Shown here piece by piece: positions 1 through 3,000 of a stretch of DNA of 38,324 nucleotides. The DNA comes from a virus (Duplodnaviria > Heunggongvirae > Uroviricota > Caudoviricetes): the IMG/VR virus record IMGVR_UViG_2718218135_000002, positions 1 to 38,324 of that record; one strand, written 5' to 3'. Every line of letters starts with the position of its first letter. The stretch's first letter is position 1. A program made the position numbers.

Positions 1-3000
1 ATGGCACTGAATATTCCATTCAGAAATGCGTACTATCGTTTTGCATCCAGTTACTCATTTCTCTTTTTTATTTCCTGGTCGCTGTGGTGGTCGTTATACG
101 CTATTTGGCTGAAAGGACATCTAGGGTTGACAGGGACGGAATTAGGTACACTTTATTCGGTCAACCAGTTTACCAGCATTCTATTTATGATGTTCTACGG
201 CATCGTTCAGGATAAACTCGGTCTGAAGAAACCGCTCATCTGGTGTATGAGTTTCATCCTGGTCTTGACCGGACCGTTTATGATTTACGTTTATGAACCG
301 TTACTGCAAAGCAATTTTTCTGTAGGTCTAATTCTGGGGGCGCTATTTTTTGGCTTGGGGTATCTGGCGGGATGCGGTTTGCTTGATAGCTTCACCGAAA
401 AAATGGCGCGAAATTTTCATTTCGAATATGGAACAGCGCGCGCCTGGGGATCTTTTGGCTATGCTATTGGCGCGTTCTTTGCCGGCATATTTTTTAGTAT
501 CAGTCCCCATATCAACTTCTGGTTGGTCTCGCTATTTGGCGCTGTATTTATGATGATCAACATGCGTTTTAAAGATAAGGATCACCAGTGCGTAGCGGCA
601 GATGCGGGAGGGGTAAAAAAAGAGGATTTTATCGCAGTTTTCAAGGATCGAAACTTCTGGGTTTTCGTCATATTTATTGTGGGGACGTGGTCTTTCTATA
701 ACATTTTTGATCAACAACTTTTTCCTGTCTTTTATGCAGGTTTATTCGAATCACACGATGTAGGAACGCGCCTGTATGGTTATCTCAACTCATTCCAGGT
801 GGTACTCGAAGCGCTGTGCATGGCGATTATTCCTTTCTTTGTGAATCGGGTAGGGCCAAAAAATGCATTACTTATCGGAGTTGTGATTATGGCGTTGCGT
901 ATCCTTTCCTGCGCGCTGTTCGTTAACCCCTGGATTATTTCATTAGTGAAGTTGTTACATGCCATTGAGGTTCCACTTTGTGTCATATCCGTCTTCAAAT
1001 ACAGCGTGGCAAACTTTGATAAGCGCCTGTCGTCGACGATCTTTCTGATTGGTTTTCAAATTGCCAGTTCGCTTGGGATTGTGCTGCTTTCAACGCCGAC
1101 TGGGATACTCTTTGACCACGCAGGCTACCAGACAGTTTTCTTCGCAATTTCGGGTATTGTCTGCCTGATGTTGCTATTTGGCATTTTCTTCTTGAGTAAA
1201 AAACGCGAGCAAATAGTTATGGAAACGCCTGTACCTTCAGCAATATAGACGTAAACTTTTTCCGGTTGTTGTCGATAGCTCTATATCCCTCAACCGGAAA
1301 ATAATAATAGTAAAATGCTTAGCCCTGCTAATAATCGCCTAATCCAAACGCCTCATTCATGTTCTGGTACAGTCGCTCAAATGTACTTCAGATGCGCGGT
1401 TCGCTGATTTCCAGGACATTGTCGTCATTCAGTGACCTGTCCCGTGTATCACGGTCCTGCGAATTCATCAAGGAATGCATTGCGGAGTGAAGTATCGAGT
1501 CACGCCATATTTCGCTATCAGGATTCTGTGTGATGGTTACATCGCCCGGCCCAGGGCTGTTTAGTCATCAGCGCTTTCTGACAGTGCTGAGATTTCAACC
1601 TGTTGCAGTAAAAATGAGTAGATATAAGGCAAGTGTGCTGCCAAACCCATCTTTTACGGGGTGAAGGTAGATTTCGTTTGAAGGGTATCTGGTGTCCCCT
1701 GCAGACATCTACTTGACGAGGCAGGGGATTGATTGGAATGGTGTTTTTTAGATGTGAGAAATATTTTACCCGCTATTTTACCCATTGGCGCGGCTTAAAA
1801 GCTTATTTTTGAATTCACAATGGTCACGATATAACCATCTTGCTCGCCCGTGGATAACTTTGGCTTTTGGCAGGTCTCCGGACTTAATCCGGTCGTAGAT
1901 GAAGGTTTTACCGAAGCCAGTATCGGCCATGATGAATTTCAAATCAACCAGTGAATCAGGCTGTAGTTCGTGTTGCATGAGTGCTATCTCCGAATAGGGA
2001 ATCGAACCTGCAAATCAGGCAATAAAAAACCGCCATTAGGCGGCTTGGTGTTCTTTCAGTTCTTCAATTCGAATATTGGTTACGTCTGCATGTGCTATCT
2101 GCGCCCATATCATCCAGTGGTCGTAGCAGTCGTTGATGTTCTCCGCTTCGATAACTCTGTTGAATGGCTCTCCATTCCATTCTCCTGTGACTCGGAAGTG
2201 CATTTATCATCTCCATAAAACAAAACCCGCCGTAGCGAGTTCAGATAAAATAAATCCCCGCGAGTGCGAGGATTGTTATGTAATATTGGGTTTAATCATC
2301 TATATGTTTTGTACAGAGAGGGCAAGTATCGTTTCCACCGTACTCGTGATAATAATTTTGCACGGTATCAGTCATTTCTCGCACATTGCAGAATGGGGAT
2401 TTGTCTTCATTAGACTTATAAACCTTCATGGAATATTTGTATGCCGACTCTATATCTATACCTTCATCTACATAAACACCTTCGTGATGTCTGCATGGAG
2501 ACAAGACACCGGATCTGCACAACATTGATAACGCCCAATCTTTTTGCTCAGACTCTAACTCATTGATACGCATTTATAAACTCCTTGCAATGTATGTCGT
2601 TTCAGCTAAACGGTATCAGCAATGTTTATGTAAAGAAACAGTAAGATAATACTCAACCCGATGTTTGAGTACGGTCATCATCTGATACTACAGACTCTGG
2701 CATCGCTGTGAAGACGACGCGAAATTCAGCATTTTCACAAGCGTTATCTTTTACAAACCCGTATTCCTGCTCATATCACTCTCCTTTGATGCGAATGCCA
2801 GTAGCGCGGATTGCATCGATGACTTCAGAAACTTTGTATGCCATTACCGTTTGGTAATCATCGTGAAAATCTGTTCGATGAAGCATGCTGCTACGTTCCG
2901 GGAGCAGTATTTCCCGCGCTTTCAGTTCTGCAATGCGCTTTTTTGCTGCTTCCAGTTCATCCAGTAATTCCAGCACGGTAGCCGGATTAGCCTTGGCAAC

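What the first reader, a model, noticed from the sequence alone, without database searches (positions are those of the whole stretch)
1690..2013. tRNA-Arg 3' core at the junction plus a second tRNA T-arm-like fragment just upstream of torI
The junction carries the last 15 nt of an argW-type tRNA (minus strand CTGCAGGGGACACCA), consistent with integration into the tRNA 3' end. About 300 bp further in, directly upstream of the torI start, the minus strand reads TTGCAGGTTCGATTCC (1998-2013), identical to the T-stem/T-loop of the same tRNA as I remember it, but not followed by the acceptor stem. This may be a vestige of an older attP or part of the torI control region; the T-loop is highly conserved, so chance similarity is possible.
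Basis: partly seen in the sequence, partly recalled or inferred. Interest (0 to 1): 0.4.

Follow-up and report, generated by a model that had tools for sequence, protein, structure and literature searches.

The report
tRNA-like control motif before torI
The prophage junction carries the known argW tRNA 3' end, and the tRNA-like 16-mer in front of the excision gene torI is a conserved regulatory motif of unproven function, not a decaying relic.

Summary
CTGCAGGGGACACCA (1690-1704) equals argW nt 61-75. TTGCAGGTTCGATTCC (1998-2013) equals argW nt 46-61.

The first is the attR core of an HK620/Sf6/KplE1-type prophage. It is already annotated in E. coli K-12 as the pseudogene pawZ, so it is known.

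The second is not chance and not a decaying attP vestige. A 14-nt core, CAGGTTCGATTYCC, sits mostly 28-29 nt before the start codon of torI-family genes in 17 diverged lineages. It is as conserved as non-synonymous codon positions (0.85 pairwise identity, against 0.58 at third codon positions and 0.30 in the 5' flank). In some lineages it is tandemly duplicated.

It lies outside the 135-bp attR that recombines in vitro. No tRNA or sigma-70 promoter is detected there, and no conserved RNA fold is supported. Its invariant centre, GTTCG, is the pentamer that TorI recognises in attL.

My best reading, unproven, is an operator at the torI ribosome-binding site, probably bound by TorI itself. Rivals are the cII-type pI promoter annotated in HK620, an IntS site, an mRNA element and a neutral relic. 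Interest is moderate.

The parts
1690..1704 (-). att core at attR: the host-derived last 15 nt of tRNA-Arg(CCU) argW, equivalent to K-12 'pawZ'
   Evidence: Exact and unique in the window. Equals argW nt 61-75. Same core is annotated in HK620 and Sf6 and as pawZ in K-12. Core quoted as CTGCAGGGGACACCAT in PMC2951348. Here the next base is G, so the duplication in this strain is 15 nt.
1705..1720 (-). Core-proximal P arm with a degenerate T-loop-like stretch (tcgtcaagTaGATgtC)
   Evidence: 7 of 16 identical to argW nt 46-61 here. Relatives keep TT[CA]GATGT[ACT], up to 10 of 16, e.g. CAGGTTAGATGTA in L115. This shows the tRNA-derived block of attP continues directly from the core.
1721..1728 (+). 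GCAGGGGA, inverted copy of core nt 2-9, 18 nt from its partner TCCCCTGC at 1695-1702
   Evidence: Read. Present in 49 of 76 distinct P-arm segments and co-varies with variant cores. Function not examined.
1763..1783 (-). Two direct repeats GGGTAAAAT (1783-1775 and 1771-1763), probable IntS arm-type sites of the P arm; the first overlaps the torI stop codon
   Evidence: Sequence. Conserved in all relatives. The same GGGTAAAA/TTTTACCC repeats lie at PintS in attL. PMC2951348 states that the arm-type sites share TAAA. Assignment to IntS on this arm is inferred.
1778..1978 (-). torI: recombination directionality factor (excisionase), 66 aa
   Evidence: ORF. 98-100% identical to TorI/HkaC/gp18.
1988..1991 (-). 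Shine-Dalgarno GGAG of torI
   Evidence: Sequence. GGAG(A/G)T is conserved in the aligned lineages.
1991..1995 (-). Second, weaker pentamer ATTCG, 12 nt after the first and abutting the SD
   Evidence: At this offset other lineages have GTTCG (2), GTCCG (3), GTACG, GTCTG (2), GCACG, AACCG (3). Only suggestive.
1997..2010 (-). Conserved 14-nt element CAGGTTCGATTCCC, with its GTTCG centre at 2007-2003
   Evidence: Unique in the window. Found once, at the same place before torI, in 169 of the 264 fetched loci, twice in L241 and L263. Conservation statistics.
1998..2013 (-).
   Evidence: The extra 5' TTG is specific to the E. coli lineage; other lineages have TTC, TGA or TTA before CAGG.
2010..2022 (-). 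TTGC-CTGAT-TTGC, annotated in HK620 as a cII binding site of a 'phage integration' promoter
   Evidence: HK620 features 1689-1701 and 1664-1702 map here (offset taken from the core). Sf6 annotates 'pI'. The spacer is 5 nt, against 6 in lambda. The box is not conserved outside the E. coli lineage.
2027..2046 (-). Intrinsic terminator of the upstream lambda-like gene, with the module boundary at its T-run
   Evidence: 2016-2300 is 98.9% identical to lambda 29098-29382. Among 80 E. coli-type loci, different upstream modules join at the T-run.

Best explanation
Two different things are present.

(1) 1690-1704 is the original 3' end of the host argW gene, left at the torI-side junction (attR) when an HK620/Sf6/KplE1-type P22-like prophage integrated. 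The working tRNA, rebuilt with phage DNA, lies just beyond the right end of the window next to intS. This part is shown and already known.

(2) The 16-mer is the E. coli version of a conserved 14-nt cis element, CAGGTTCGATTYCC. It sits between the terminator of the upstream gene and the torI ribosome-binding site, mostly 28-29 nt from the start codon. It is tRNA-derived or a tRNA mimic, but it is kept by selection. It is not part of the att site. This part is shown by comparison of lineages.

The mechanism is inferred. I think it is a protein operator that limits torI expression, most likely bound by TorI itself. Its invariant centre GTTCG is the pentamer TorI recognises at its five attL sites. 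A second, weaker pentamer lies 12 nt downstream against the Shine-Dalgarno. TorI made after read-through of the terminator during induction would bind here and throttle further transcription or translation of torI, as it represses PintS.

The identity with argW would follow because the argW T-loop DNA carries the same pentamer, spaced 31 nt from site I1 in attL.
For: Identity of the core; PMC2951348; PMC8787464. argW next to intS in a near-identical lysogen.

Conservation:
- 17 lineages with TorI 68-100% identical keep the 14-mer.
- Mean pairwise identity is 0.85, against 0.30 for the 20-nt 5' flank, 0.58 for torI third codon positions and 0.88 for positions 1+2.
- G4, T5, T6, G8, A9, T11 and C13 are invariant.
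- The distance from GTTCG to the ATG is 28-29 nt in 14 of 17 lineages.
- The element is tandemly duplicated in L241, L260, L263 and L227.

The most variable core position corresponds to tRNA C61, which tRNAs never vary. The constraint is therefore not that of a tRNA.

TorI site cores GTTCG/GATCG/GTCCG, five sites in attL, and repression of PintS through I4 and I5 come from PMC2951348.

K-12 attL pentamer spacing, T-loop to I1 to I5, is 31, 20, 43, 10, 10 nt.

A second pentamer at +12 matches the published set in 5 of 20 lineages.

Lineages without the element have the SD directly after the terminator, or torI overlapping the upstream gene. The element therefore looks like an add-on between terminator and SD, not a full promoter.
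Against: No binding data exist for this site, and PtorI is called 'non-characterized' in PMC2951348.

All published and inferred TorI sites have C or T after GTTCG and mostly A before it. The element always has A after it and usually G before it, so it matches the 8-mer site at 6 of 8.

Six more conserved bases (ATTYCC) are not explained by a TorI site.

The +12 pentamer is degenerate, including in this window (ATTCG).

Spacing of the tandem copies (12, 13, 16 nt) is not helically phased.

Klebsiella-type modules with the same TorI sites in attP lack the element.

The lineages are related, and no phylogeny-aware test was run.
Confidence: 0.4

Rival explanations
1. The element is part of a cII-activated, lambda-pI-like promoter. 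After infection it would transcribe across torI and attP into int, starting at or after the torI SD so that Int but not TorI is made. This is how HK620 and Sf6 are annotated.
For: HK620 annotates 'promoter: phage integration' and 'cII protein' binding at the equivalent of 1985-2023, and Sf6 annotates 'pI'. The lambda homology ends inside the lambda pI cII box, and TTGC...TTGC is present here. The position relative to the RDF gene parallels lambda.
Against: The half-site spacer is 5 nt, not 6. The second TTGC and often the first are absent in other lineages that keep the 14-mer (TTCC, TGAC, TTAC). No -10-like hexamer is found at the right distance and no promoter is found by consensus scan. intS has its own mapped promoter in the P' arm (PMC2951348), so a pI is not needed. 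The conserved bases lie in what would be the spacer.
Confidence: 0.15
2. The element is a mimic of the argW T-arm DNA read by the integrase IntS through its core-binding domain. It would give IntS control over torI, or recruit the torI upstream region into a higher-order complex.
For: 13 conserved nt equal the argW T arm in both argW variants seen. The P arm next to the core keeps TTCGAT-like sequence, as expected if IntS reads it as part of a core-type site. IntS is already known to act as a repressor at PintS (PMC2951348).
Against: The TGCAGG part that accompanies TTCGAT at both real core sites is missing. The element is 294 nt from the core and outside the 135-bp attR that recombines in vitro (PMC3509656). 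IntS repression at PintS was studied through its arm-type (P') sites, and none of the individual site mutations relieved it.
Confidence: 0.12
3. The element acts in the mRNA. AUUYCC pairs with the SD GGAGAU and GGUU pairs with AACC before the AUG, masking the torI ribosome-binding site.
For: ViennaRNA predicts this two-part hairpin in many lineages. 83% of cells pair in the named structure, against 57-62% when the partner is slid by one column. The nearly fixed distance to the SD fits.
Against: RNAalifold predicts no consensus structure. Shuffles reach the observed pairing and covariation. The window's own leader folds no better than shuffles, z = 0.23. The unpaired CG of GTTCG is among the most conserved bases. 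C at motif position 12 and A at position 14 break pairs in common E. coli variants.
Confidence: 0.1
4. The element is a functionless relic of an earlier attachment site or a captured piece of argW.
For: It is identical to the T arm of the tRNA used as attB, in the same orientation as the core. Phage attP sites derive from tRNA 3' parts. Some lineages lack it, and single-base variants occur in E. coli prophages.
Against: The conservation far exceeds that of the flanks and of synonymous sites across 17 lineages, at a nearly fixed distance from the ATG, with tandem copies. The attP tRNA block is continuous next to the core, so there is no split 30-mer.
Confidence: 0.08

Closest known systems
pawZ, the attR core of cryptic prophage KplE1/CPS-53 in E. 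coli K-12, and the attP core of HK620, Sf6 and Kapi1
   Same: Same 15-nt sequence and same position about 75 nt after the torI stop. Same module order: torI, P arm, core (PMC8787464).
   Different: The host flank here is the csc sucrose locus rather than dsdC. The 16th base is G instead of T, so the repeat is 15 nt.
TorI binding sites I1-I5 of attL (Panis et al. 2010, PMC2951348)
   Same: Same GTTCG pentamer. Same direct-repeat logic, with a second pentamer or tandem copies in some lineages. TorI already represses a promoter (PintS) through such sites.
   Different: The flanking bases differ (A rather than C/T after GTTCG). The conserved block is longer. The element lies at the torI gene, on the other prophage end from attL. 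No binding has been shown.
T arm of tRNA-Arg(CCU) argW
   Same: 16 of 16 identical in this window. 13 nt (CAGGTTCGATTCC) are shared with the cross-lineage consensus.
   Different: There is no complementary T-stem 3' strand and no cloverleaf. The position equivalent to the invariant C61 is the most variable one.
Lambda pI promoter with its cII site (TTGC-N6-TTGC) at the start of xis
   Same: Same relative position before the RDF gene. The shared upstream lambda-like gene and terminator run into the first TTGC.
   Different: The spacer is 5 nt. There is no recognisable -10. The box is not conserved in other lineages that keep the element.

Membership tests
att core duplication of a tRNA-integrating prophage (attR, pawZ type) | Identical to the 3' end of the target tRNA gene | tested here: met
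   15 of 15 to argW nt 61-75.
att core duplication of a tRNA-integrating prophage (attR, pawZ type) | The same sequence closes an intact tRNA at the other prophage end, next to the integrase | tested here: inconclusive
   The window stops at the intS ATG, so it cannot be seen here. It is met in the 97-98% identical lysogen APEC20/16 and in K-12.
att core duplication of a tRNA-integrating prophage (attR, pawZ type) | Flanked by the cognate RDF gene and arm-type repeats of the known module | tested here: met
   torI and GGGTAAAAT x2 are present, 96-98% identical to HK620, Sf6 and Kapi1.
tRNA gene or tRNA pseudogene fragment (for the 16-mer) | Cloverleaf or partial tRNA detectable by tRNA models | tested here: not met
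   ARAGORN finds 0 genes. No Rfam tRNA hit at E<=10.
tRNA gene or tRNA pseudogene fragment (for the 16-mer) | T-stem 3' strand complementary to the 5' strand follows the loop | tested here: not met
   GCAGG-TTCGATT-CCCTA pairs at only 2 bp. Across lineages a 4-bp stem occurs only in L012.
Functional att site component (P arm of attR/attP) | Lies within the DNA needed for recombination | tested here: not met
   It is 294 nt from the core. The attR used for in vitro excision is 135 bp and starts in the 3' end of torI (primer attR-IHF2; PMC3509656).
TorI (RDF) binding site | Core pentamer GTTCG, GATCG or GTCCG | tested here: met
   GTTCG at 2007-2003. It is nearly invariant across the 17 lineages; one lineage (L209) has GTTAG.
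TorI (RDF) binding site | 8-mer context as in I1-I5, (C/T)(A/G)GTTCG(C/T) | tested here: inconclusive
   AGGTTCGA matches at 6 of 8. The base after the pentamer is always A here and C or T in known sites.
TorI (RDF) binding site | Occurs in arrays of direct repeats | tested here: inconclusive
   A second pentamer at +12 is good in 5 of 20 lineages and degenerate here (ATTCG). Tandem copies occur in 4 lineages.
TorI (RDF) binding site | Bound by TorI | not testable with these tools
   Needs EMSA or footprinting.
cII-activated pI/pRE-type promoter | TTGC-N6-TTGC straddling the -35 region | tested here: not met
   The spacer is N5 here. The second half-site is TTCC, TGAC or TTAC in other lineages.
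cII-activated pI/pRE-type promoter | Usable -10 hexamer at 16-18 nt, and a mapped start | tested here: not met
   No promoter-like site in 1600-2400. A transcription start cannot be tested here.
SD-sequestering mRNA hairpin | Stable conserved structure with covariation | tested here: not met
   z = 0.23. RNAalifold gives no pairs. Shuffles equal the observed values.

The most novel reading that the evidence does not exclude
The element is a functional mimic of the argW T-arm DNA. The same recombination protein (TorI or IntS) that reads the T arm beside the crossover site in attL/attB would also read this copy at the torI ribosome-binding site. RDF synthesis would then be coupled to the state of the attachment site. 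In that case the RDF's recognition pentamer GTTCG would itself derive from the universal tRNA T-loop.
Probability: 0.15. Interest if true: 0.65.

Novelty: new member of a known kind. Interest (0 to 1): 0.4.

Why it matters
Published work on KplE1 concludes that excision is controlled mainly through torI expression, yet the torI control region is uncharacterised (PMC2951348).

A short, strongly conserved element immediately before torI, carrying the pentamer TorI itself recognises, is a concrete and testable candidate for that control point. The module is widespread: sequence matching this junction region occurs in 4180 of 5426 complete E. coli genomes.

The finding also corrects database annotation. 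The 'phage integration promoter / cII site' label in HK620 and Sf6 does not explain what is conserved.

The junction 15-mer itself adds nothing new.

Tried and rejected
(1) tRNA detection. ARAGORN on the window and Rfam at E<=10 on 1500-2400 found no tRNA. The only weak hits (STnc130 at E=0.37 and others) are driven by the terminator.

(2) 'torI was inserted into a 30-nt tRNA block'. This was tempting because the 16-mer and the core tile argW nt 46-75. I rejected it because the P arm keeps its own T-loop-like stretch directly next to the core in nearly all lineages.

(3) The T-stem half tracking the host tRNA. It does not. Only CAGG is constant. Hafnia-type elements read TTACAGG while their att core implies GCAGG.

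(4) RNA hairpin masking the SD. No covariation and no stability signal.

(5) Sigma-70 promoter scan. Nothing found.

(6) Generalisation. I scanned IMG/VR for GGTTCGAATCC-N5-8-GGAG-N5-10-ATG. Of the first 120 hits, 107 are real tRNAs, and the rest are not followed by Xis-like ORFs.

(7) Distant AlpA-type homologues at 30-43% identity (L031-L034) have no such element and are not informative.

(8) Literature. Panis 2007 (JBC), Panis 2010 (Virology), ElAntak 2005 and Menouni 2013 (PNAS) are not held. A full-text search for GGTTCGATTCC listed only eukaryotic tRNA, CRISPR and other unrelated papers among the 15 of 154 shown.
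Full report
**What the window is**

The window starts at the ATG of cscB, the sucrose permease (1-1248, +). It ends exactly at the ATG of intS (37167-38324, -). Between them lies a complete P22-like prophage of the HK620/Sf6/KplE1 recombination type. The region 1690-2300 is 96-98% identical to Kapi1, N7, HK620 and Sf6. Sequence matching 1250-2300 occurs in 4180 of 5426 complete E. coli genomes.

**Check of the observation**

- CTGCAGGGGACACCA is at 1690-1704 (-). TTGCAGGTTCGATTCC is at 1998-2013 (-). 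Each is exact and unique in the window.
- K-12 argW reads ...ctaaTTGCAGGTTCGATTCCTGCAGGGGACACCA. The 16-mer is nt 46-61 and the 15-mer is nt 61-75.
- torI is 1778-1978 (-). The 16-mer ends 19 nt before its ATG and is followed by CTATTCGGAG, not by the rest of the tRNA.
- No tRNA is detected by ARAGORN or by Rfam at E<=10.
- An argW 16-mer this close to the core on the same strand is expected about 7e-6 times.

**The junction 15-mer**

This is the att core of the module. HK620 and Sf6 annotate it as the attP core. K-12 annotates the same 15 nt after torI as the pseudogene pawZ. The literature gives CTGCAGGGGACACCAT as the duplicated core of KplE1 (PMC2951348) and the same site for Kapi1 (PMC8787464).

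In strain APEC20/16, which matches both prophage ends at 97-98%, an intact tRNA-Arg(CCU) lies 161 nt beyond intS. Its attL has the same layout as in K-12. This half of the finding is right and already known.

**The 16-mer is not a split piece of the att site**

The two strings tile the last 30 nt of argW, so I first considered that torI had been inserted into a longer tRNA block. That reading fails. In 45 distinct P-arm types, the 16 nt directly left of the core keep a degenerate T-loop, TT[CA]GATGT[ACT]. Identity to argW nt 46-61 reaches 10 of 16, for example CAGGTTAGATGTA in a Klebsiella-type phage. The tRNA-derived block of attP therefore runs on continuously from the core, and the copy before torI is a second one.

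It is also outside the functional site. The attR that recombines in vitro is 135 bp and begins inside the 3' end of torI (PMC3509656).

**The 16-mer is the local form of a conserved element**

I collected torI homologues from species-representative genomes and from IMG/VR. All have an argW-type core about 75 nt after the stop codon. In 17 lineages, from Escherichia, Citrobacter, Enterobacter, Serratia, Pantoea and Edwardsiella genomes and from IMG/VR contigs retrieved with a Hafnia query (TorI 68-100% identical), the sequence CAGGTTCGATTYCC precedes the Shine-Dalgarno. The flanks differ between lineages.

| Region compared | Mean pairwise identity |
|---|---|
| 14-mer element | 0.85 |
| 20 nt on its 5' side | 0.30 |
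| torI third codon positions | 0.58 |
| torI codon positions 1+2 | 0.88 |

Further points from the same comparison:
- The G of GTTCG is 28-29 nt from the ATG in 14 of 17 lineages.
- Four lineages carry tandem copies, for example CACAGGTTCGATTCCCGTCAGGTTCGATTCCCATCGGAG.
- Among E. coli-type prophages the 16-mer is nearly constant, with rare single-base variants. The boundary to different upstream modules lies at the terminator T-run, so the element belongs to the torI module.
- The most variable core position corresponds to tRNA C61, which tRNAs never change. The constraint is therefore not that of a tRNA.
- The 5' TTG that extends the match to 16 nt is specific to the E. coli lineage. The part shared with argW in all lineages is the 13-mer CAGGTTCGATTCC, which is also constant in the argW variants I could read.

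This is a selected cis element that either descends from the argW T arm or mimics it.

**What it might do**

*Promoter.* HK620 and Sf6 records label this stretch as a cII-dependent 'integration' promoter. The lambda-like upstream module does end inside the lambda pI cII box. Against this:
- the half-sites are 5 nt apart, not 6;
- they are not kept in the other lineages;
- no -10 or consensus promoter is found;
- the conserved bases would fall in the spacer;
- intS has its own mapped promoter (PMC2951348);
- lineages without the element have the SD directly after the terminator, so the element is an add-on of about 30 nt, too short for a full promoter plus leader.

*RNA.* A hairpin pairing AUUYCC with the SD is predicted in many lineages. 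However, it has no covariation support, RNAalifold predicts no structure, and it is no more stable than shuffles in this window (z = 0.23). The unpaired CG is among the best-conserved bases.

*Protein site.* The invariant centre GTTCG is the pentamer that defines the five TorI sites of attL: GTTCG, GATCG and GTCCG, which were mutated to CAAGC in PMC2951348. TorI represses PintS through two of these sites.
- In K-12 attL, the T-loop pentamer and sites I1-I5 are spaced 31, 20, 43, 10 and 10 nt.
- Twelve nt after the element, against the SD, many lineages have a second pentamer: GTTCG, GTCCG or GTACG. In this window it is ATTCG.
- Direct repeats and tandem copies suit a winged-helix RDF.

Weaknesses of the protein-site reading:
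- Real TorI sites have C or T after the pentamer, whereas the element always has A.
- The conserved ATTYCC is unexplained.
- Modules with the same attP TorI sites can lack the element.
- There are no binding data. PMC2951348 calls PtorI uncharacterised.

An IntS core-type-like site remains possible, because the P arm next to the core also keeps TTCGAT.

**Verdict**

- The junction core is known.
- The internal 16-mer is real, is not chance, and is not a decaying relic. It is a conserved control element of the excisionase gene.
- I put about 0.85 on 'selected cis element'. I put about 0.4 on the specific mechanism, an operator bound by TorI that limits torI expression after terminator read-through.
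- The held literature I could search does not mention the tRNA-like nature or the cross-lineage conservation of this element. Several key papers were not available.

Interest is moderate. It offers a concrete handle on how excision is controlled in a very common E. coli prophage module, but it stays within a known kind of system.

Noticed in passing
window 1695-1702 and 1721-1728: The P arm carries an inverted copy of the left part of the core: TCCCCTGC ... 18 nt ... GCAGGGGA. In 49 of 76 distinct P-arm segments from relatives, the exact reverse complement of core nt 2-8 lies 18-19 nt upstream. It co-varies with variant cores (GCAGGGA with TCCCTGC, GTAGGGG with CCCCTAC). It could be an extra IntS core-type site or a DNA hairpin.
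   Followed up: partly
window 2016-2300: 98.9% identical to phage lambda 29098-29382, the small ORF and ea8.5 side upstream of xis. The mosaic joint to the torI module falls inside the lambda pI cII box. Other E. coli prophages join different modules at the terminator T-run.
   Followed up: partly
window 1654-1785 (-): A 43-aa ORF homologous in position to HK620 hkaB and Sf6 gene 17 runs across the att core. Its C-terminal part is host-encoded in the prophage and phage-encoded in the free genome. Whether it is a real gene is unknown.
   Followed up: no
window 1-1248 and 34314-38324: The window begins at the cscB ATG and ends at the intS ATG. Next to intS is a three-gene gtr-type O-antigen glucosylation operon; the two genes matched are annotated yfdG (GtrA family) and yfdH (glycosyltransferase) in related lysogens. 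This is typical of seroconverting P22-like prophages.
   Followed up: no
L222, L227, L235, L134 (about 150-250 nt after the attR core): In several relatives the attR core is followed by the start of another integrase-like ORF rather than host DNA. This suggests tandem integrated elements at argW.
   Followed up: no
L241 1156-1185, L263 1156-1185, L260, L227, L010: Tandem or triple copies of the T-arm-like element occur before torI, with 12-, 13- or 16-nt spacing.
   Followed up: partly
L004 570-745 (K-12 attL), L264 2640-2810: The argW T-loop pentamer GTTCG lies 31 nt from TorI site I1, roughly a whole number of helical turns, as are I1-I2 (20 nt) and I2-I3 (43 nt). The tRNA's own T-loop DNA could be an unrecognised sixth TorI contact in attL.
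   Followed up: no
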